Shown in pieces: positions 1 through 5,631 of a stretch of DNA of 64,000 nucleotides (positions are counted from its first letter, which is position 1; each line of letters begins with the position of its first letter). Source of the stretch: a virus; IMG/VR virus record IMGVR_UViG_3300034102_001457, positions 1 through 64,000 of that record; one strand, written 5' to 3'. Below the pieces are notes generated by a model that saw only the letters and a program-made list of their open reading frames with translations, ran no database searches and had not been told where the DNA came from. A program made the translations under genes and the position numbers.

Positions 1-47
1 TTGATTACTTTGCTTGTTGCTACCTTTACTGTGATTTGTCTGCTCAT
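1..47 (-). CDS. Partial small early gene (MSRQITVKVATSKVI...), runs off the window
   Basis: ATG at 47, GAAAGG RBS at 55-60 and a conserved promoter upstream. Confidence 0.6.
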   Translation of the reverse strand, partial: MSRQITVKVATSKVI

Positions 48-75
48 TGTATTTCCTTTCGTTGGTTGGTTGATT

Positions 76-97
76 AGTATAGCAGGGGGGTCTGACA
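76..97 (-). promoter_or_regulatory. PafBC/RecA-NDp-type promoter P1
   Basis: Minus strand reads TGTCAG-acccccctgc-TATACT. Confidence 0.75.
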
Positions 98-179
98 TTT
101 CCACCCGAAGGTGGAGAGTTCTTACTTACGACATTGGACTAGAACACTCTCTAAACTGTCCCTGTTTCGTTATGCTTAT

Positions 180-338
180 TTAGTTAGCAGTTGCGCTTGT
201 CCAGCGTTCCTTGCCTTCTACATCAAGCAGAATACGATTTACTCCGCTAGGGTGGTTATCAACGGCTTTGATAACTCCTGTGATACCGCTTGTTGTTGTT
301 GTGTAGGTTTGACCTACTTCTAGTGTTGCGTTTGTCAT
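180..338 (-). CDS. Hypothetical 52-aa protein (MTNATLEVGQTY...)
   Basis: Translated by hand; AACGAAAGG RBS and promoter P2 upstream. Confidence 0.7.
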   Translation of the reverse strand: MTNATLEVGQTYTTTTSGITGVIKAVDNHPSGVNRILLDVEGKERWTSATAN

Positions 339-367
339 TTGTTTCCTTTCGTTTGGTTGGTAGTAGT

Positions 368-389
368 ATTATAGCGGATACCACCGACA
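368..389 (-). promoter_or_regulatory. PafBC/RecA-NDp-type promoter P2
   Basis: TGTCGG-tggtatccgc-TATAAT. Confidence 0.8.
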
Positions 390-417
390 TTTCCCCCCAT
401 TTCTAGGGGGAGTGTCG

Positions 418-433
418 TGTGATACTAGTCACA
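418..433. promoter_or_regulatory. CRP/GlxR-type site
   Basis: TGTGA-tactag-TCACA, perfect consensus. Confidence 0.75.
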
Positions 434-694
434 CTCAGGTAGCCAAAATCCTAAGTGGTGTTGGTCAATAATAGCGGAGGCAGGTGCTGTATCTAATCCT
501 TTATAAGATACGCCTTCAGGCATCTTTATCTGTCGATCAAAATCCTCATCATAGTATGCGTCAATAGCATCTATGCAAGGTTGCACCATAGAAAGTGGAA
601 CGGGTGGGTAATGATTACCCTGTAAGTGATAGGCTAATTGTGTTTCTAAATCTAACACGCTATCCTGAATACCTAGTGCAGTTATGCTTCCCAT
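425..694 (-). CDS. Hypothetical phage protein (HLQGNHYPPVP motif)
   Basis: ORF track; GAAGGT RBS; same strand as neighbours. Confidence 0.75.
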   Translation of the reverse strand: MGSITALGIQDSVLDLETQLAYHLQGNHYPPVPLSMVQPCIDAIDAYYDEDFDRQIKMPEGVSYKGLDTAPASAIIDQHHLGFWLPECD

Positions 695-696
695 TG

Positions 697-921
697 TTAG
701 TTACCTTCCTTGATAGTCATTTCAGCCCAAGTGTTAAACTCATTAGCAGTTTTTAATACATTAGATTGAGCAAGGGCGTGTAGCGTTGCTTCCTTGCACA
801 TCTCTGTCATTGTTTTTTCATCAAGAGCAATTAAGCGTGGCAATAAGTTTGCAGGGATAGTATCAAGGTTAATGATAGCCTCGAAAGTTATTGTGTGTGG
901 AACTTTGATTAGATTAGACAT
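697..921 (-). CDS. Hypothetical protein
   Basis: ORF with GAAAGG RBS downstream of P3. Confidence 0.7.
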   Translation of the reverse strand: MSNLIKVPHTITFEAIINLDTIPANLLPRLIALDEKTMTEMCKEATLHALAQSNVLKTANEFNTWAEMTIKEGN

Positions 922-950
922 TTGTTACCTTTCGTTGTTGGAATAAGAGT

Positions 951-972
951 ATTTTAGCATACCCCACTGACA
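951..972 (-). promoter_or_regulatory. PafBC/RecA-NDp-type promoter P3
   Basis: TGTCAG-tggggtatgc-TAAAAT. Confidence 0.8.
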
Positions 973-1000
973 TTACCTAATCTATTCCCCGCATAAGCCT

Positions 1001-1016
1001 TGTGATAAATCTCACA
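1001..1016. promoter_or_regulatory. CRP/GlxR-type site
   Basis: TGTGA-taaatc-TCACA. Confidence 0.75.
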
Positions 1017-1029
1017 AATTTCCAGGGTT

Positions 1030-1059
1030 TGTGGATAACTCCCGTAAACCTGTGGATAA
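1030..1059 (-). promoter_or_regulatory. Two tandem DnaA boxes
   Basis: TGTGGATAA (reverse complement TTATCCACA) at 1030-1038 and 1051-1059. Confidence 0.7.
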
Positions 1060-1080
1060 CCCCGTAGTATTGCGGGCCTT

Positions 1081-1203
1081 TTATTCCTCCTGGCCCCATA
1101 TGTCGGGATCTATTTCTGCTAAGTACTCTTTAGCAGCTTTTTTCTGATCTTGATCACCAACAACAGAATTTATTAATGCATTAAAATAATTAAGCTCCGC
1201 CAT
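1081..1203 (-). CDS. Hypothetical 40-aa protein (MAELNYFNAL...)
   Basis: Translated by hand; AAGGAG RBS. Confidence 0.6.
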   Translation of the reverse strand: MAELNYFNALINSVVGDQDQKKAAKEYLAEIDPDIWGQEE

Positions 1204-1215
1204 TTTTATTTCTCC

Positions 1216-1935
1216 TTATTTTTTAGTTGCGCTAAATCTAATATCTGCTTTACCATAAACACATAACCCACACGATACACACGCAGAACCTGCATTGCTA
1301 ATTAGTGGAATTGATTTCATATTTTCAGGGCACTTAGCACCAGGCTTGCCCGTCAATTCTTTCATTGTGCTTTCGGTGACGGCGAATGTCTTCCCTAAAT
1401 ATGCAAGGCGAATTCCCTCATTTACTTTTAGTTCGTGGCCGATTTCTTTATTCTCATCGTCGGTAGAATAGTAAAGAGATAAATTAGATACATCCTTTAG
1501 AATAAGCGCTGCAGACTTTACACGTGTGTAAACCCAGAATTGAACATCGGTGTGCTCATTGATTACATTCTTCCAGGCATAAGTATAGAAATCATTGAAG
1601 AAATCTCCGTCCCAGTGGATACGGAATAGCATAGGAGCGTCTTTCTTTACACAATCAGCCTTGAAATCAATAATCATTTCATTTAGCAATTGATACATTG
1701 TTTCCATATCGGCATTGCGTAGCAATTCCCAATTGTGTAGCAGATTAGTTTTTACTCCCTTGAAGAGTTTTTCCAATTTGCCTGCATAGCAAACAGTCTC
1801 GCAGATAGACGTAGCGCCAGGACATGAGAAATCTTTTCCTGCGGGTAATCCGAACGTGTTAGCAATTGCGGCTTGCTTTCCATTTTTTGTGACAAGGTTA
1901 GCCACCTTTCTATCATTAGAGCGTTTCAATTTCAT
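1216..1935 (-). CDS. GP88-like Cys-rich (radical-SAM-like) protein
   Basis: CPGATSICETVCYA, RIHWDGDF, WVYTR and C-terminal CxxCxxC motifs; start moved to 1935 on the basis of the RBS and P4. Confidence 0.75.
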   Translation of the reverse strand: MKLKRSNDRKVANLVTKNGKQAAIANTFGLPAGKDFSCPGATSICETVCYAGKLEKLFKGVKTNLLHNWELLRNADMETMYQLLNEMIIDFKADCVKKDAPMLFRIHWDGDFFNDFYTYAWKNVINEHTDVQFWVYTRVKSAALILKDVSNLSLYYSTDDENKEIGHELKVNEGIRLAYLGKTFAVTESTMKELTGKPGAKCPENMKSIPLISNAGSACVSCGLCVYGKADIRFSATKK

Positions 1936-1963
1936 TAGTTGGCCTTTCGTTGGTAAGGTTGTA

Positions 1964-1985
1964 AGTATAGCAGAATGGACCGACA
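1964..1985 (-). promoter_or_regulatory. PafBC/RecA-NDp-type promoter P4
   Basis: TGTCGG-tccattctgc-TATACT. Confidence 0.8.
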
Positions 1986-2012
1986 TTTTACGCAACACGC
2001 TGCAAATTCCAG

Positions 2013-2028
2013 GGTGTTTTAGATCACA
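2013..2028. promoter_or_regulatory. Degenerate CRP-type site
   Basis: GGTGT-tttaga-TCACA keeps the GTG-N8-CAC core and lies at the conserved distance from P4. Confidence 0.5.
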
Positions 2029-2055
2029 GTCGTAACGACACGCCCGACTCCGCAG
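2029..2055. repeat. 27-bp exact repeat, copy 1 (copy 2 at 3485-3511)
   Basis: GTCGTAACGACACGCCCGACTCCGCAG. Confidence 0.9.
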
Positions 2056-2067
2056 CTCTGCGGGCTT

Positions 2068-2083
2068 TCGAACACCTGTTCTA
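2068..2083. promoter_or_regulatory. Actinobacterial LexA (SOS) box
   Basis: TCGAAC-acct-GTTCTA, one mismatch from TCGAAC-N4-GTTCGA. Confidence 0.6.
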
Positions 2084-2088
2084 ATTAA

Positions 2089-2220
2089 TTATTGATCGAA
2101 TTTATTTTTATGTTTTATTTTGCGTGTGTATTTTTTTTTATTGCGAACAGGTTGCGCCGCATTACTGCGACGCAATTCCTGAATGCGTTTTACTTTATCT
2201 TGAAGAGAAGTTAGGAACAT
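2089..2220 (-). CDS. 43-aa highly basic protein (ELRRSNAAQPVRNKKKYTRKIKHK)
   Basis: Translated by hand; overlaps the end of the upstream gene. Confidence 0.6.
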   Translation of the reverse strand: MFLTSLQDKVKRIQELRRSNAAQPVRNKKKYTRKIKHKNKFDQ

Positions 2221-2386
2221 TATACCCACTCGCTTCGTGAAATCGTTTTACATCAAATCGCTCATTATCTTTCGCAAACATTTCAGCGAAATCATTTACA
2301 ATTTTAGAAAATACAGCAGGGTGAGTTTTGTTGCTAGCATACTTTAGAATTTCTGCGGTTGCTATGTAGTCTTTTCTAGTCATCAT
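2195..2386 (-). CDS. Hypothetical protein (MMTRKDY...DNERFDVKRF)
   Basis: ORF track; start trimmed to the ATG overlapping the upstream stop. Confidence 0.7.
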   Translation of the reverse strand: MMTRKDYIATAEILKYASNKTHPAVFSKIVNDFAEMFAKDNERFDVKRFHEASGYNVPNFSSR

Positions 2387-2586
2387 TTTACTACGACCTC
2401 TCCTGTGCGATAAAATAGTTTTGTATAGCATTTGCCAGTTGGTGTAAATAAATTTACAGTTGAGTATTCATTAGCAGAACCCCAATCGGTAAAACGGAAA
2501 AAGTTTTCCCACGCACCAAATTCATTTTCGTATTCGGCAGACCAGTGGGGGGCGTTGCTATCATAGGCGCAAGTTAGTTTATACAT
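2383..2586 (-). CDS. Hypothetical protein
   Basis: ORF with GAAAGG RBS, downstream of P5. Confidence 0.7.
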   Translation of the reverse strand: MYKLTCAYDSNAPHWSAEYENEFGAWENFFRFTDWGSANEYSTVNLFTPTGKCYTKLFYRTGEVVVK

Positions 2587-2630
2587 TAGTTTCCCTTTCG
2601 TTAGTTATACATTTACATTGTGTTATTACT

Positions 2631-2652
2631 ATTGTATCAGTTGCCACCGACA
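2631..2652 (-). promoter_or_regulatory. PafBC/RecA-NDp-type promoter P5
   Basis: TGTCGG-tggcaactga-TACAAT. Confidence 0.75.
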
Positions 2653-2704
2653 CAATAGCGAGAGTATCGCAATTATCGCAAATCCACATTTCAGCAATTT
2701 TCAT

Positions 2705-2851
2705 TTATTTATTCTCCTGAAAAAAACTGAGCGGATTACATTGGCAAGCCTCTACATCATAATTATTTTCATCTCCGTAGTATAGCCAGCCATTTCCGTA
2801 GCAGGTATCACACTCTAAAATCTGAGTGTATAATTCTTTCATTCTACCCAT
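2705..2851 (-). CDS. 48-aa Zn-finger-like protein (CDTCYG...CQC)
   Basis: Translated by hand; GAAAGG RBS; downstream of P6. Confidence 0.65.
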   Translation of the reverse strand: MGRMKELYTQILECDTCYGNGWLYYGDENNYDVEACQCNPLSFFQENK

Positions 2852-2883
2852 TTAGGTTTTCCCTTTCGTTTGTTGATTTTGTA

Positions 2884-2905
2884 ATTGTAGCAGATAGCAC
2901 TGACA
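2884..2905 (-). promoter_or_regulatory. PafBC/RecA-NDp-type promoter P6
   Basis: TGTCAG-tgctatctgc-TACAAT. Confidence 0.75.
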
Positions 2906-2965
2906 AGGCTTGCGCCTTGCTTGCCTCACGTTGTGCGATAACGTGTTGTTTGAATTCGTCTAAGT

Positions 2966-3091
2966 TCATTCGAACGCACCTTCCTCTAATAATCCTAATT
3001 CGATGTTGAATAATTCATCGGGTGTTGCTTCGGATAAATCTACCCAGCCAGCACCCTCGTTGTCCATTCGGAAAATTTCGATGTATCCCAT
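2966..3091 (-). CDS. 41-aa acidic protein (MGYIEIFRMDNEGAGWVD...)
   Basis: Translated by hand; tightly packed with neighbours. Confidence 0.6.
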   Translation of the reverse strand: MGYIEIFRMDNEGAGWVDLSEATPDELFNIELGLLEEGAFE

Positions 3092-3093
3092 TA

Positions 3094-3300
3094 TTATTCA
3101 CCAACCTTTACTGCGATTGTTGCGAATTTATTTCGCAGACCGCCCGCATTTATTTCGATTAGATACGCTTCAGTTTTTTCACCATACCAAATTTCTGGGC
3201 GGTGTTCGGCAGATACAATTTCGCCAGAAAAGTGGCGATTGCGTGAGCGATAGTTTTTCCCTACAAGTAGGCTTTCGATTGTGTATAGTTTGGTAGCCAT
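3094..3300 (-). CDS. Hypothetical protein
   Basis: ORF track; RBS; downstream of P7. Confidence 0.7.
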   Translation of the reverse strand: MATKLYTIESLLVGKNYRSRNRHFSGEIVSAEHRPEIWYGEKTEAYLIEINAGGLRNKFATIAVKVGE

Positions 3301-3335
3301 TGGCAGACCTTCTTTCGTTTGTTGTTATGTATGGA

Positions 3336-3357
3336 ATTATACACGAACCCACTGACA
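3336..3357 (-). promoter_or_regulatory. PafBC/RecA-NDp-type promoter P7
   Basis: TGTCAG-tgggttcgtg-TATAAT. Confidence 0.8.
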
Positions 3358-3405
3358 TTTTCACATTACTAGCCAGTAAATCCAAATAGTGAGACGCTCA
3401 AGCCG

Positions 3406-3421
3406 TGTGATACTAATCACA
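3406..3421. promoter_or_regulatory. CRP/GlxR-type site
   Basis: TGTGA-tactaa-TCACA. Confidence 0.75.
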
Positions 3422-3484
3422 TCAAAATGTCCGATTTGTCTGTCAAATCGACACGCCGTAGAATTCAGGGATTTTTATAACAAT

Positions 3485-3511
3485 GTCGTAACGACACGCC
3501 CGACTCCGCAG
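3485..3511. repeat. 27-bp exact repeat, copy 2
   Basis: Identical to 2029-2055. Confidence 0.9.
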
Positions 3512-3559
3512 TAGTTGCGGGCCAGCTTGATTTTGTCAAGCCGACACGCCGTTATTTAT

Positions 3560-3757
3560 TTATTCATTTTCTAATTCCGCTAAATAATCTTCGTGTTCTA
3601 CTAAACCAATCGCAAACGCAACGGGATCGCAACACTCTAAGATTTCGGCGGGTGTAAAAGTTGAGTAACCAATTTTTACAGTTGGATAAATGTCATTTAG
3701 TAAATCTATAAAACTTTCTTTGATTTCTAAATCTTTTTCTAATTGTGATTTACTCAT
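3560..3757 (-). CDS. Hypothetical acidic protein
   Basis: ORF track. Confidence 0.7.
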   Translation of the reverse strand: MSKSQLEKDLEIKESFIDLLNDIYPTVKIGYSTFTPAEILECCDPVAFAIGLVEHEDYLAELENE

Positions 3758-4337
3758 TTAGTCCCCCATTTTTTATGTCTTTGATTACTGCGATTAGTAG
3801 CGGGATAGTTACGCCCGCTAGTAGTAATTGGACGGCGGTAGTTAGTAAGCGATTAGTAGTCATTACTTATTCTTCTTTCTCTTGTAAATCTTATAGGCGA
3901 TTAGTAGGGCGGTAGTAATTAGGATAGTGTGCCAAGGTAAGTAGATAGCCCCTAAGAAACTATCAAACTCTAATCCGTAGTCGCTAGTTATGTATAACTC
4001 AAATCCGTTTATAGTCATTATTAGTTATCCCAATCTAATGTTAGTGCGGACATTTCTTCTTCTTCGTATTCGCTAAGGCGCAAATCTAAGCCCTCTGCTA
4101 GTGCCTTGTTATAGGCTTCTTCTTCTTCTAGATAGACATAAGCGTCTGCTACATCTGCCTGAATAGTATCCCATTTAGTCATCATTACTTTACCTCTACT
4201 TCTCTAATGTTGTAAGTGAAACCCTTACCTAGTTTTTCTAATTCTTTTATTACGGCTAAGATTTCTTCGGGCTTGTTAGCCTTTTGATTTACGGCTAATA
4301 GTTGAGAGCCTTGCCATAGTGTATAAGTGATAGTCAT
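3750..4337 (-). CDS. Four tiny coupled ORFs (4337-4185, 4185-4021, 4018-3863, 3863-3750); the last two are membrane peptides
   Basis: Translated by hand; stop/start junctions overlap or abut; downstream of P8. Confidence 0.55.
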
Positions 4338-4372
4338 TATCTGTTCTTCTTTCGTTAGTAGTTATAGTAGGA

Positions 4373-4394
4373 ATTGTAGCGCATAGCGCCGACA
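4373..4394 (-). promoter_or_regulatory. PafBC/RecA-NDp-type promoter P8
   Basis: TGTCGG-cgctatgcgc-TACAAT. Confidence 0.8.
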
Positions 4395-4423
4395 TTGTAT
4401 AGCGACACGCCGTTAGGCGTTAG

Positions 4424-4439
4424 TGTGATTATGGTCACA
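4424..4439. promoter_or_regulatory. CRP/GlxR-type site
   Basis: TGTGA-ttatgg-TCACA. Confidence 0.75.
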
Positions 4440-4521
4440 CACGGACTCGATTTCGTGTCCGAACTCCTCTACGAGTTCCTCGTAGATTTCGTCCATATAA
4501 TCAAGATAATCGTTCATTAGA

Positions 4522-4728
4522 TTACTCCCAACTTCTAGTAGTAGCATAAACCTTGCGAGTGCTAGGCTTGTAATTTTCTAACTCTCTTAGATTAGTTTCT
4601 AAGATAGTGCCTCTTAGGGCTAGTAGGTCAAGATACTCATTAGCATCTTGTTCGGTATTCATTAGAACACCTAAGCAAGTAGAAAACTCGGTGTCCGAGT
4701 ATTGGACTTTATAACTTAGTGAAAACAT
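4522..4728 (-). CDS. Hypothetical protein
   Basis: ORF track; GAAGGA RBS; downstream of P9. Confidence 0.7.
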   Translation of the reverse strand: MFSLSYKVQYSDTEFSTCLGVLMNTEQDANEYLDLLALRGTILETNLRELENYKPSTRKVYATTRSWE

Positions 4729-4779
4729 TTTGTTTTCCTTTCTTTATCAAGAACCTTTCTTGATTTTCTTTATAGTATA

Positions 4780-4801
4780 ACTCTAGCAGGGGGGACTGAC
4801 A
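4780..4801 (-). promoter_or_regulatory. PafBC/RecA-NDp-type promoter P9
   Basis: TGTCAG-tcccccctgc-TAGAGT. Confidence 0.7.
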
Positions 4802-4839
4802 AAAAGGGGGGTTACTGGCAAGTATTCTCAAACTATTTT

Positions 4840-4855
4840 TGTGATTAGCATCACA
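4840..4855. promoter_or_regulatory. CRP/GlxR-type site
   Basis: TGTGA-ttagca-TCACA. Confidence 0.75.
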
Positions 4856-4967
4856 CTCACGCTCAAAGTTAGTAGCCTATGGGCGCACTAAATAGACAAA
4901 ACGGACATTTATTTATTCGTGATCATACATGATAAAAATATATTAACATTTTGTGAAATATGAAATG

Positions 4968-5318
4968 CTAGTCGACTGAGATTTTATTCCTAAGTTTTTT
5001 TCTATACGAAGTATCGACGGGTGCATACCTAGGATGTTTCTTTGGCTCATTTGTTCTATTACCTTTAGTAAGGTTGCAGATACCGTGAGAAGGCTTTACG
5101 TTTATAAGCTCGTCAGATCCTCCTTTGGTTAAAGGGATTACATGATCTAGCTGTAGTCCATACTTCCATCCAGGTACAAAAGCTTGGCGGGGTGCAGAGT
5201 AATCTATCTGCATACCACATATGTGACAATTACCCCCATGTATAATAAAAATTTCATAGAAGGAGTATAGGTGTGGATCCGTATATCTCTCTATGTTTGC
5301 TTTATTGTTTACTGGCAT
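4968..5318 (-). CDS. HNH endonuclease
   Basis: CHICG...LDHVIPLTKGG...N...HGICNLTKG. Confidence 0.9.
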   Translation of the reverse strand: MPVNNKANIERYTDPHLYSFYEIFIIHGGNCHICGMQIDYSAPRQAFVPGWKYGLQLDHVIPLTKGGSDELINVKPSHGICNLTKGNRTNEPKKHPRYAPVDTSYRKKLRNKISVD

Positions 5319-5393
5319 AACAAAATATTATCAAATAAAAAAAGTTTCGTCAACCCCTTGACCTTAGAATATTTCAAATGTTATACTTCCATA

Positions 5394-5487
5394 GGGGGGT
5401 CGGGGGGTCAGAAAATACAGAAAATACAAAAAATACAAAATATAAAACATATAACATATAACATATATAACATATATAACATATATA
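5394..5487 (+). repeat. G-runs followed by degenerate ~9-bp AT-rich tandem repeats
   Basis: GGGGGGTC x2, then CAGAAAATA/CAAAAAATA/ACATATATA units. Confidence 0.85.
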
Positions 5488-5488
5488 G

Positions 5489-5517
5489 TTGACTAGAATG
5501 TATAGATAGTATATAAT
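5489..5517 (+). promoter_or_regulatory. Sigma70/SigA-type promoter
   Basis: TTGACT-17bp-TATAAT; ATG 6 nt after the -10 (leaderless). Confidence 0.8.
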
Positions 5518-5523
5518 AAATTA

Positions 5524-5631
5524 ATGGCATCGTCAAGATTAGTAAAATGTGATAAATGTGGGCGGGAGATTGAAGTAAGATCTGGGTTTGCACATATGAC
5601 ACTTAATAATCATCAGAAAAGCTGTAAATAA
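5524..5631 (+). CDS. 35-aa C2HC zinc-finger peptide
   Basis: CDKC...HQKSC; leaderless start. Confidence 0.6.
   Translation: MASSRLVKCDKCGREIEVRSGFAHMTLNNHQKSCK

What the first reader, a model, noticed from the sequence alone, without database searches (positions are those of the whole stretch)
1988..4912. Mosaic intergenic modules built from further repeated motifs: a host-factor sensing or decoy array
Seen: (a) CGACACGCC five times exactly (2036, 3449, 3492, 3542, 4403). (b) A 27-bp exact repeat (2029 and 3485) ending in a CCGCA..TGCGG hairpin, echoed at 1061-1077. (c) AATT(T)C(C)AGGG at ~1017, ~2005 and ~3462. (d) TTACT-N4-AGTA at 3366 and 4812, both ~32 bp upstream of a -10. (e) AAATGTCCGWTTTGTC at 3425(+) and 4895(-). 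The gap 3360-3559 is almost entirely made of these parts. Established: GACAC is the WhiA(/WhiB) core motif. Inference: the gaps are combinatorial panels of binding sites for several host regulators. They could read host state, or coat the first-injected DNA with host proteins (sponge or camouflage).
Basis: partly seen in the sequence, partly recalled or inferred. Interest (0 to 1): 0.75.

Follow-up and report, generated by a model that had tools for sequence, protein, structure and literature searches.

The report
WhiA-box regulatory cassettes between phage genes
The gaps between the small early genes of this uncultured lake phage are conserved cassettes (RNA hairpins, protein-binding words, a promoter). 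Their commonest word is a perfect copy of the DNA site of WhiA, the actinobacterial cell-division regulator, which hints at what phage WhiB proteins act on.

Summary
All five observations are at the stated coordinates. CGACACGCC occurs 5 times against 0.08 expected, only at 2036-4403 and always on one strand.

On the gene strand the word reads GGCGTGTCG. Across 80 related phage loci it occurs 413 times forward and 108 times reverse, against about 3 expected. In three complete relatives it is confined to 3.6 kb or less of the early region.

Its core GACACGCC equals, 8 of 8, the WhiA/WhiB2 ChIP-seq and IDAP-seq consensus of M. tuberculosis. That paper places a WhiA peak 42 bp upstream of recA P1. 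In the phage family the box centre lies at -42 or -50 of the recA-P1-type (PafBC-type) early promoters.

Small actinobacterial genomes of the likely host order hold few copies of the 8-mer, at conserved intergenic sites. Their WhiA keeps all five DNA-contact residues. Five of five complete relatives encode WhiB and none encodes WhiA.

Part of the "panel" is RNA structure rather than protein sites. Most boxes form the invariant 5' arm of a hairpin, or directly follow one. That hairpin is selected on the mRNA strand and starts just after a stop codon.

The cassettes also mark gene-shuffling junctions, like the PeSLs of T4-type phages. The decoy idea is untested but numerically possible. First readers of this scan noted the same box in related phages before.

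The parts
4403..4411 (-). WhiA-consensus box (gene strand GGCGTGTCG), promoter-proximal class T3. It spans -45..-37 of the PafBC-type promoter at 4394-4373, 2 nt upstream of a -35-like TATACA. Its first bases form the 3' arm of a small hairpin ACGCC-TAAC-GGCGT.
3542..3550 (-). Box of class T1, 10 nt after the stop codon of ORF 3560-3757 and fused to TTGACA. It is the invariant 5' arm of hairpin 1.
3517..3541 (-). Hairpin 1 (GCTTGA-CAAAA-TCAAGC, extended by G.U pairs into the box). In the family it folds far better as sense RNA than as antisense RNA.
3501..3516 (-). GC-rich hairpin 2 (CCCGCA-loop-TGCGG). Its arms co-vary in relatives (CCCACA/TGTGGG, CCCCTA/TAGGGG). Its 3' arm (3501-3511) lies inside the 27-bp repeat.
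3485..3511 (-). 27-bp exact repeat, copy 2. It holds the class B box (TCG-GGCGTGTCG-TTAC, 3492-3500) and the mini-hairpin GTCGTTACGAC.
3461..3480 (-). TGTTATAAAAATCCCTGAATT: the A/T-rich block plus motif (c), lying 3 nt upstream of the next box.
3449..3457 (-). Box of class T2 (centre about -124 of the promoter at 3357), fused to TTGACA.
3421..3451 (-). Terminator-like hairpin TCGATTTG-ACAGA-CAAATCGG with tail ACATTTTGAT. Motif (e), forward copy, is its 3' arm plus tail.
3406..3421 (.). CRP-type palindrome TGTGA-N6-TCACA. It is the subject of another finding and is listed here as part of the cassette.
3381..3402 (-). Conserved block CTTGAGCGTCTCAC between the CRP-type site and the palindrome. 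Function unknown.
3366..3379 (.). Palindrome TTACTAGCCAGTAA (motif d), centred at -44 of the promoter. Probable operator of an unnamed dimeric regulator.
3336..3357 (-). PafBC/RecA-NDp-type promoter TGTCAG-N10-TATAAT, followed by the conserved leader ACGAAAG and the start of ORF 3094-3300.
2029..2055 (-). 27-bp exact repeat, copy 1. It holds the class B box (2036-2044, centre about -83 of the promoter at 1985) and the 3' arm of the GC hairpin CCCGCAGAGCTGCGG, whose other arm lies at 2056-2060.
1995..2014 (-). Motif (c) CCCTGGAATT, followed by a degenerate box AGCGTGTTG next to the promoter at 1985.
4812..4824 (.). Palindrome TTACTGGCAAGTA (motif d, second copy), upstream of the promoter at 4801.
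4895..4910 (-). Motif (e), inverted copy AAATGTCCGTTTTGTC. It has no hairpin partner, at about -128 of the promoter at 4801.
1017..1077 (-). Related cassette in the next gap: GC hairpin (1061-1076), two TTATCCACA words (1030, 1051) and motif (c) (1018-1027) abutting a CRP-type site at 1001.
3436..3464 (+). Possible antisense sigma-A-type promoter TTGTCT-N17-TAGAAT, with the box at 3449-3457 in its spacer. A-11, A-9 and T-7 are invariant in 26 orthologues.

Best explanation
The gaps are conserved composite terminator-operator-promoter cassettes of the early, small-gene arm of a large family of freshwater actinobacterial phages.

Read along the genes (minus strand), a full cassette has four parts:
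1. Directly after the upstream stop codon, an RNA hairpin whose invariant 5' arm is GGCGTGTCG-NN-TTGAC, then a GC-rich hairpin. Together these end or stabilise the upstream message and insulate the cassette.
2. One or more further GGCGTGTCG boxes and other short operators: CCCTGRAWTT, a TGTGA-N6-TCACA palindrome, a TTACT-N4-AGTAA palindrome, and sometimes TTATCCACA.
3. A PafBC-type promoter, TGTCRG-N10-TAnnnT.
4. A conserved leader and ribosome-binding site.

The box is a binding site for host WhiA. WhiA reads GACAC(GCC) and positions a WhiB-type partner on sigma-A. The phage family supplies its own WhiB from a consensus sigma-A promoter.

The likely sequence of events is this. Phage WhiB is made first and pairs with host WhiA at the boxes. 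This raises or later shuts off transcription from the adjoining PafBC-type promoters, as at recA P1 of M. tuberculosis, where a WhiA peak lies 42 bp upstream.

Because the same modules recur many times, they also act as recombination points, and small gene cassettes are gained, lost and reordered there.

Shown here: the motifs, their conservation, positions and strand bias; the RNA-strand asymmetry of the hairpin; the identity of the box with the published WhiA consensus; the host's sites and its WhiA; and the mosaic junctions.

Inferred: actual WhiA/WhiB binding, the direction of the effect, termination at the hairpins, and the host order.
For: - Box statistics. 5 copies against 0.08 expected in the window. 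413 forward and 108 reverse copies against about 3 expected in 1.23 Mb of 80 related loci. Exact copies outnumber all one-mismatch variants together, 413 to 101, and mismatches fall mainly at the two end positions. In three complete relatives all 5-7 copies lie within 3.6 kb or less, with none elsewhere in 104-115 kb.
- Identity of the word. The WhiA and WhiB2 ChIP-seq and WhiA IDAP-seq motif of M. tuberculosis is GACACGCC, and a WhiA peak lies 42 bp upstream of the LexA-independent recA P1 (PMC13473873). WhiA-CTD reads GACAC in either orientation at variable spacing upstream of -35, and WhiB bridges it to sigma-A (PMC10243135).
- Position. Box centres peak at -42 (forward, 38 distinct promoters) and -50 (reverse, 69) of PafBC-type promoters.
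- Host. In 5 small actinobacterial genomes the 8-mer is rarer than its backwards control (6-23 against 21-37). It sits at conserved intergenic places: two sites around the nrdR upstream region, with the distal one flipped between genomes, and upstream of rpsL, a DUF4193 gene and PIN-PhoH. Their WhiA is highly similar to S. venezuelae WhiA (E 6e-161) and keeps R266, L274, K287, R293 and R295.
- Phage partner. 5 of 5 complete relatives encode WhiB and 0 of 5 a WhiA HTH. WhiB lies behind TTGACA-N18-TATAAT.
- Hairpins. The 5' arm is invariant and the 3' arm varies while keeping the pairing. Sense RNA is 6 kcal/mol more stable than antisense in 83 of 88 modules (z -3.4 against -1.15; composition alone gives 0.7). 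110 of 139 modules start 0-20 nt after a stop codon. The T2 hairpin carries a U-rich tail.
- Shuffling. Homology blocks between the window and relatives break at the modules, and gene order differs. L003 carries an extra cassette between two copies of the module where the window has one.
Against: - No binding or transcript data.
- The record itself (63% complete) has no WhiB gene.
- The composite box-NN-TTGAC is absent from 300 of 301 genomes of the candidate host order. That arrangement is therefore a phage invention, with no host precedent to lean on.
- Most boxes (classes B, T1 and T2; 356 of 413) are not promoter-proximal. T1 and T2 have a perfect -35 but no -10, and simple promoter activation does not explain that.
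- In the sepX structure WhiB occupies about 7 bp between -35 and the WhiA site. In forward phage boxes only 3 nt separate GTGTC from the hexamer.
- The host link rests on mis-binned phage contigs in 2 actinobacterial MAGs out of the 10 MAGs that hold such contigs, plus motif logic.
- The related loci share ancestry, so the counts are not independent events.
- The hairpins mostly lack U tracts.
Confidence: 0.55

Rival explanations
1. Decoy or sponge. The boxes, above all the promoter-less box-plus-TTGACA modules and the tandem triple boxes of some relatives, exist mainly to soak up host WhiA, WhiB2 and perhaps sigma-A holoenzyme. This would switch off host cell-division and replication genes as phage DNA multiplies.
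For: - The host-order genomes hold only 6-10 copies of the 8-mer in the three complete-looking ones. A phage genome holds 5-7 perfect 9-mers, so a few phage copies would already outnumber the host sites.
- Most boxes have a consensus -35 next to them but no -10.
- Some relatives carry three tandem boxes.
- Near-perfect conservation of the consensus word suggests selection for maximal affinity.
Against: - Forward and reverse boxes have preferred positions at -42 and -50 of real promoters. That is what an operator needs and a sponge does not.
- The boxes are confined to a few gaps rather than spread over the genome.
- The T1 box is also part of an mRNA-strand hairpin.
- Nothing here measures titration.
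Confidence: 0.15
2. Structure-and-recombination repeats only. The modules are PeSL-like terminator/promoter repeats kept for termination and cassette shuffling, and the resemblance of the box to the WhiA consensus is coincidental or irrelevant.
For: - The hairpins are selected on the sense RNA strand and lie directly after stop codons.
- Mosaic junctions and an extra cassette are bounded by two module copies.
- There is a published precedent in T4-type phages (PMC2839356, PMC4122927).
Against: - A pure stem would let both arms co-vary. Here the 5' arm is invariant while the 3' arm drifts.
- The box also occurs without a hairpin and in reverse orientation at fixed distance from promoters.
- The same 9-mer is conserved at host intergenic sites and is otherwise avoided in host genomes.
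- An 8-of-8 match of the family's most conserved word to one published consensus is unlikely by chance.
Confidence: 0.12
3. The box is the operator of a phage-encoded early protein, or of PafBC itself (its -26 element TGTCRG shares TGTCG with the box), rather than of WhiA.
For: - The early arm encodes many small proteins of unknown function.
- The box-NN-TTGAC composite, palindrome (d) and perfect CRP-type palindromes are phage-specific and absent from host genomes.
- The promoter at 2652 reads GTGTCGG, overlapping box-like sequence.
Against: - The host genomes keep the same 9-mer at conserved intergenic sites, which points to a host factor.
- No early protein has a recognisable DNA-binding family.
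- PafBC-type promoters need the -10 at fixed spacing, and the boxes lack it.
Confidence: 0.08
4. Part of gap 3425-3560 is a small antisense RNA gene. A sigma-A-type promoter on the + strand (TTGTCT-N17-TAGAAT, 3436-3464) would transcribe about 100 nt through the two hairpins to the T-rich stretch at 3551-3565. The box in its spacer would act as a repressor site.
For: - The scan lists this promoter with 9 of 12 matches.
- In 26 orthologues the -35 is invariant and the -10 keeps A-11, A-9 and T-7 while other positions vary.
- Hairpins and a T-rich tail follow.
Against: - The hairpins fold much better on the other (sense) strand.
- The same conserved bases belong to motif (c).
- No Rfam family matches.
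- There are no RNA data.
Confidence: 0.1

Closest known systems
WhiA/WhiB-dependent promoters of Actinobacteria (S. venezuelae sepX, PDB 8DY7/8DY9; M. tuberculosis WhiA/WhiB2 regulon, including recA)
   Same: - The GACAC core and the full 8-bp GACACGCC consensus.
- Placement just upstream of the -35 region, in either orientation.
- Association with a recA-P1-type (PafBC) promoter, as reported for M. tuberculosis recA.
- A WhiB-family partner is available, here phage-encoded.
   Different: - The sites are on a phage and clustered 5-10 per genome in a few gaps.
- Most are fused at a fixed 2-nt distance to a consensus TTGACA that has no -10, and are built into an RNA hairpin. That composite is missing from 300 of 301 candidate host genomes.
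- Binding is untested.
PeSLs (promoter-early stem-loops), the composite terminator/promoter repeats of T4-type phages (Arbiol 2010; Comeau 2014)
   Same: - Short conserved stem-loop-plus-early-promoter modules flank small genes of unknown function in a plastic early region.
- Indels and reorderings have their junctions at the modules.
- One cassette is bounded by two module copies.
   Different: - A different phage group and host phylum.
- The promoter is of the PafBC type, not sigma-70 early type.
- The stem-loop carries a host transcription-factor consensus, and the modules include several further operators.
- Mini-circle excision has not been shown here.
PafBC-dependent (RecA-NDp) promoters, TGTCRG-N10-TAnnnT
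   Same: All nine promoters served by these cassettes have this form. The candidate host uses the same form next to lexA.
   Different: This is the subject of a separate finding. The motifs examined here lie upstream of that core.
Phage-encoded WhiB proteins (for example mycobacteriophage TM4 WhiB; surveys of WhiB in actinophages, PMC8612146)
   Same: The family encodes WhiB (5 of 5 complete relatives).
   Different: From my own knowledge, published work treats phage WhiB as acting on host genes. I found no report of WhiA-consensus arrays on the phage's own DNA. Only one paper in the library holds the word GACACGCC.

Membership tests
WhiA binding site | Contains the asymmetric core GACAC | tested here: met
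   All five window copies and 521 family copies contain it. The core is as defined in PMC3781837 and PMC10243135.
WhiA binding site | Matches the extended consensus GACACGCC found by ChIP-seq and IDAP-seq in M. tuberculosis | tested here: met
   8 of 8 in every copy. Variation in the family is concentrated at the two flanking positions of the 9-mer.
WhiA binding site | Lies upstream of the -35 region of a promoter, in either orientation | tested here: met
   Centres fall at -42 (forward) and -50 (reverse) for 107 distinct promoters. This holds for only about a quarter of all boxes; the rest lie at -84 to -218 or next to a hexamer without a -10.
WhiA binding site | The host encodes WhiA with the DNA-reading residues, and a WhiB partner is present | tested here: met
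   WhiA of candidate host G001 keeps R266, L274, K287, R293 and R295. WhiB is found in 5 of 5 complete relatives. The host assignment itself is an inference.
WhiA binding site | WhiA protein binds the site and changes transcription | not testable with these tools
   Needs EMSA, DAP-seq or reporter assays.
PeSL-like mobile regulatory cassette | Composite stem-loop plus early promoter, repeated between small early genes | tested here: met
PeSL-like mobile regulatory cassette | Indels and replacements between close relatives have junctions at the repeats | tested here: met
   Breakpoints fall at 3532-3574, 3417, 3092, 2833-2863, 2591, 1944 and 1063-1078. The extra cassette at L003:7373-8150 is bounded by two modules.
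PeSL-like mobile regulatory cassette | Excision or integration through recombination between repeats (mini-circles) | not testable with these tools
   Would need PCR for circles in infected cells.
Intrinsic (rho-independent) terminator | GC-rich stem-loop directly followed by a U tract on the transcribed strand | tested here: inconclusive
   The T2 hairpin 3451-3431 has the tail ACATTTTGAT. Hairpins 1 and 2 of T1 are stable and favour the sense strand but lack a U tract. From my own knowledge, U-less terminators are reported in actinobacteria.
Transcription-factor decoy array | Sites titrate the factor away from host targets | not testable with these tools
   Only copy numbers are available.

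The most novel reading that the evidence does not exclude
Phage-encoded WhiB proteins, widespread in actinobacterial phages and of largely unknown role, act on the phage's own genome. Host WhiA reads an array of perfect GACACGCC boxes in the early region and docks phage WhiB and sigma-A there. This couples PafBC-type early promoters to the host's cell-cycle regulator. At the promoter-less box-plus-TTGACA hairpin modules it also parks or titrates WhiA-WhiB-holoenzyme, so host division and replication genes are starved as phage copies rise.
Probability: 0.3. Interest if true: 0.8.

Novelty: new variant of a known kind. Interest (0 to 1): 0.62.

Why it matters
WhiB genes are among the commonest host-like regulators carried by actinobacterial phages, yet their targets are mostly unknown. 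WhiB has no sequence specificity of its own and is placed on DNA by WhiA.

Finding the exact WhiA consensus repeated and conserved in the early region of a WhiB-encoding phage family gives a concrete, testable target: the phage's own promoters. The test needs only gel shifts and reporters in a model actinobacterium.

The finding also suggests that these phages copy more of the recA P1 control region than its PafBC core. It extends the PeSL idea, regulatory repeats as the joints of gene shuffling, to a very abundant group of lake phages.

All functional steps remain untested.

Tried and rejected
- RNA evidence. Lake metatranscriptome runs hold 13-26% of the sampled words of 1-5600, but they were never laid, so they count for nothing. 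I have no transcript starts, ends or strand.
- Near-identity search of phage records found nothing.
- RNAalifold on the MAFFT alignment of 96 modules found only the invariant TGTC/GACA pairing, because the stems shift register. I used per-sequence folds instead.
- Rfam: no match at E up to 1.
- Box-plus-TTGACA as a full promoter: no TAnnnT at 16-19 nt in the window copies or, on reading the family listing, in most relatives. Rejected.
- Box as a PafBC-type promoter (TGTCG-N10-TAnnnT): no -10 at that spacing in the window copies. Rejected.
- Chi-like recombination hotspot. The word is G/T-rich and strand-biased, but Chi words are over-represented in their hosts, whereas this one is under-represented. 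Rejected.
- Packaging or replication-origin iterons. The boxes are spread over several gaps between genes, and the same word is a conserved host intergenic site. Not favoured.
- Helical phasing of the boxes. The window copies sit at about -42, -83, -124, -167 and -217, but within gap 3301-3559 the spacing is 43 and 50 bp. No claim made.
- Host naming. Phage contigs are binned into MAGs labelled Chitinophagales, Bacteroidia, cyanobacterium, Methylococcus and others, so those labels are useless. Only two actinobacterial MAGs were used as entry points.
- The supplementary tables of PMC13473873 are not held, so I could not check whether nrdR, rpsL or phoH2 are WhiA targets in M. tuberculosis.

Full report
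**What the region is.** The window is the first 64 kb of a 79,857-bp virus contig of about 39% G+C, rated 63% complete. Bases 1-4900 carry small genes on the minus strand. Nearly all have no known family. They are served by nine promoters of the form TGTCRG-N10-TAnnnT, each followed by a conserved leader ACGAAAG. These promoters occur nowhere else in the contig (9 found, 1.4 expected). They are the subject of another finding of this scan, which reads them as PafBC (RecA-NDp) promoters. I use them here only as landmarks.

- CGACACGCC occurs five times, all on one strand and all between 2036 and 4403, against 0.08 expected.
- The 27-bp repeat at 2029 and 3485 is exact.
- AAATGTCCGWTTTGTC occurs at 3425(+) and 4895(-), against 0.00 expected.
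- TTACT-N4-AGTA at 3366 and 4812, and the CCCTGRAWTT words at 1018, 2005 and 3461, are present but weak on window statistics alone.

**Relatives.** The 239-aa protein of 1216-1935 has more than 570 relatives in IMG/VR. I fetched 80 loci (1.23 Mb) with 86-100% identity in that protein.
- The gene-strand box GGCGTGTCG occurs 413 times forward and 108 times reverse, against about 3 in shuffles.
- CCCTGRAWTT occurs 151 times forward and 0 reverse, against 11 expected.
- TACTKGCYAGTAA occurs 58 times forward and 1 reverse, against 0.4 expected.
- GACAAAWCGGACAT occurs 46 times forward and 37 reverse, against 0 expected.
- Exact boxes outnumber all one-mismatch variants together, and the mismatches fall mainly at positions 1 and 9.
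- In three complete relatives of 104-115 kb, all 5-7 boxes lie within 3.6 kb or less of the early region.
- In 26 distinct orthologues of the gap 3301-3559 (80% mean identity), these blocks are at least 97% invariant while loops and spacers vary: the three boxes, the TTGAC words, motif (e), both halves of the CRP-type palindrome, a block CTTGAGCGTCTCAC, palindrome (d) and the promoter.

The loci share ancestry, so the counts are not independent events. The contrast between invariant words and drifting flanks is the real evidence.

**Anatomy of the box.** The 413 forward boxes fall into four contexts.
- T1 (139 copies): the box, then two bases, then TTGAC. In 110 of 139 it starts 0-20 nt after the stop codon of the upstream gene.
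- B (167 copies): TCG-GGCGTGTCG-TTAY, directly after a GC-rich hairpin.
- T2 (50 copies): CCCTGAATT-yAC-box-ATTTGACAGACAAATCGGACATTTT, followed by the CRP-type palindrome.
- T3 (48 copies): the box two bases upstream of a -35-like hexamer of a real promoter.

Reverse boxes lie between a CRP-type palindrome and a promoter. Relative to the transcription start, inferred from the -10, box centres peak at -42 (forward, 38 distinct promoters) and -50 (reverse, 69). Palindrome (d) is centred at -44. In the window, 4403 is T3, 3542 is T1, 3492 and 2036 are B, and 3449 is T2.

**Part of the panel is RNA structure.** In an alignment of 96 T1 modules the 5' arm (box-NN-TTGAC) is invariant. The 3' arm differs in sequence and register but keeps the pairing, and the two spacer bases change together with their partners.

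As RNA, the sense strand folds 6 kcal/mol better than the antisense strand in 83 of 88 distinct modules, using about two G.U pairs. The z-score is -3.4 against -1.15, and shuffles of the same composition give a difference of only 0.7. So the hairpin is selected on the early-mRNA strand, at the 3' end of the upstream cistron.

The second, GC-rich hairpin (CCCGCA..TGCGGG) shows arm changes such as CCCACA/TGTGGG and CCCCTA/TAGGGG. The forward copy of motif (e) is the 3' arm and U-rich tail of a terminator-like hairpin whose 5' arm is again the end of a box plus TTGAC (3451-3431). The inverted copy at 4895 has no partner arm, so (e) is not only structural.

**What the box is.** A literature search found that the WhiA ChIP-seq, WhiB2 ChIP-seq and WhiA IDAP-seq motif of M. 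tuberculosis is the 8-mer GACACGCC (PMC13473873). No other paper in the library holds that word. The phage box contains it 8 of 8.

The same paper reports a WhiA peak 42 bp upstream of recA P1, the DNA-damage promoter that is independent of LexA and RecA. The phage early promoters copy that promoter type. The cryo-EM work on S. venezuelae shows three relevant points (PMC10243135):
- WhiA-CTD reads GACAC much as sigma region 4 reads TTGACA.
- Orientation and spacing vary between promoters.
- WhiB, which has no sequence preference, bridges WhiA to sigma-A just upstream of -35.

**Host side.** Contigs of this phage family are binned into many unrelated MAGs. Two actinobacterial MAGs (1.3 and 1.7 Mb) gave an entry to an order of 301 small genomes of 1.0-2.2 Mb. 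These are presumably the acI/Nanopelagicales group, which is my inference.
- In five of these genomes GACACGCC is rarer than its backwards control (6-23 against 21-37), and some of those hits lie on phage contigs.
- The remaining sites are largely intergenic and shared between genomes. Two flank the upstream region of nrdR in the lexA-LysM-nrdR locus, and the distal one is inverted between two genomes. Others lie upstream of rpsL, of a DUF4193 gene and of a PIN-PhoH gene.
- Most of these read CGACACGCC, the phage 9-mer.
- The WhiA of one such genome is highly similar to the S. venezuelae protein of PDB 8DY7/8DY9 (E 6e-161) and keeps all five DNA-contact residues tested there.
- Five of five complete relatives of the phage encode a WhiB-family protein and none a WhiA HTH. 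The WhiB gene lies behind a consensus TTGACA-N18-TATAAT promoter. The present record has no WhiB gene.

**Limits of the WhiA reading.**
- The composite box-NN-TTGAC occurs in 1 of 301 host-order genomes, on a 1.7-kb contig. It is a phage construction.
- Most boxes are far from a promoter, or next to a -35 that has no -10.
- In forward boxes only 3 nt separate GTGTC from the hexamer, whereas in sepX WhiB contacts about 7 bp there.
- Palindrome (d) and perfect CRP-type palindromes are not motifs of the host genomes. They may be read by phage proteins, or by host factors whose own sites are degenerate.

**Shuffling.** Homology between the window and seven relatives is broken into blocks whose ends fall at the modules, and the block order differs between genomes. 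In L003 an extra unit lies between two T1 copies (L003:7373 and 8150), where the window has a single copy. The unit holds T1, two TTATCCACA words, a reverse box, a promoter and three small ORFs. This is the pattern described for the PeSL terminator/promoter repeats of T4-type phages (PMC2839356, PMC4122927).

**Verdict.**
The gaps are dense, conserved regulatory cassettes. Their main word is very probably a WhiA site and is tied to the PafBC-type promoters as at recA P1.
- A good part of the repeated sequence is mRNA-strand hairpin, not protein site.
- The partners of (c), (d) and (e) remain unnamed.
- The decoy idea is open.
- First readers of this scan had noted the same box in at least five related phage genomes. 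Those notes were unchecked, and I tested their central claim here.

Noticed in passing
window 2068-2083: TAGAACAGGTGTTCGA matches 14 of 16 bases of the LexA-type box TCGAACAAGTGTTCGA found next to the candidate host's lexA gene (L101). One of the two mismatches lies in the N4 spacer, so it is a near-perfect SOS box. It lies about 96 nt upstream of the promoter at 1985 and is kept in only five close relatives.
   Followed up: partly
L101:1038-1075 and L107:1022-1060 (candidate host genomes): The gene divergent from lexA is preceded by TGTCGG-N10-TATGGT (TATATT in L107), followed by a LexA box. So the host order itself uses the same promoter form as the phage early genes.
   Followed up: partly
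candidate host genomes G003, G010, G050; phage contigs G001:C162 and G002:C382: Perfect TGTGA-N6-TCACA palindromes are absent from three complete-looking host-order genomes. They occur only on phage contigs binned into MAGs. The CRP-type sites of the early promoters may therefore not mirror host sites.
   Followed up: partly
L101, L103, L104, L098 (host G010) and L107, L109, L111 (host G003): The few host copies of CGACACGCC lie at conserved intergenic places: around the nrdR upstream region, and upstream of rpsL, a DUF4193 gene and a PIN-PhoH gene. This is a possible minimal WhiA regulon of streamlined actinobacteria.
   Followed up: partly
related loci (contexts printed): Some relatives carry three tandem boxes (GGGCGTGTCGT GGCGTGTCG GGCGTGTCGT) between an inverted TTATCCACA word and TCCACAG.
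   Followed up: no
L115-L119 (complete relatives): The phage WhiB gene lies 300-400 nt downstream of a consensus TTGACA-N18-TATAAT promoter. This is a second promoter class, distinct from the PafBC type.
   Followed up: partly
window 3381-3402: The block CTTGAGCGTCTCAC between the CRP-type site and palindrome (d) is invariant in 26 orthologues and matches no motif I know.
   Followed up: no
window 5400-5500: An A/T-rich run of short tandem words (AAAATACA, then CATATAA and CATATATAA) lies between the leftward early arm and the rightward genes. It is flanked by divergent near-consensus sigma-70-type promoters (5489-5517 +, 5536-5508 -). It may be an origin or a control region.
   Followed up: no
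window 4747-4766: The leader of the promoter at 4801 holds an 8-bp hairpin, ATCAAGAA-AGG-TTCTTGAT, just upstream of the ribosome-binding site.
   Followed up: no
window 1-104: The first minus-strand ORF runs off the contig start, and relatives have up to 18 such promoters. The early arm is therefore truncated in this record.
   Followed up: partly
L081-L093: Contigs of this phage family sit in MAGs labelled Chitinophagales, Bacteroidia, cyanobacterium, Victivallaceae, Methylococcus and Flavobacteriaceae. This is probably binning by low G+C, not host signal.
   Followed up: no
L104:1480-1530 (host G010, upstream of rpsL): AAAAATCCCTGAAAAT, a good copy of phage motif (c), lies 13 nt from the host GACACGCC site. 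It is not kept in the second host genome (L111).
   Followed up: no
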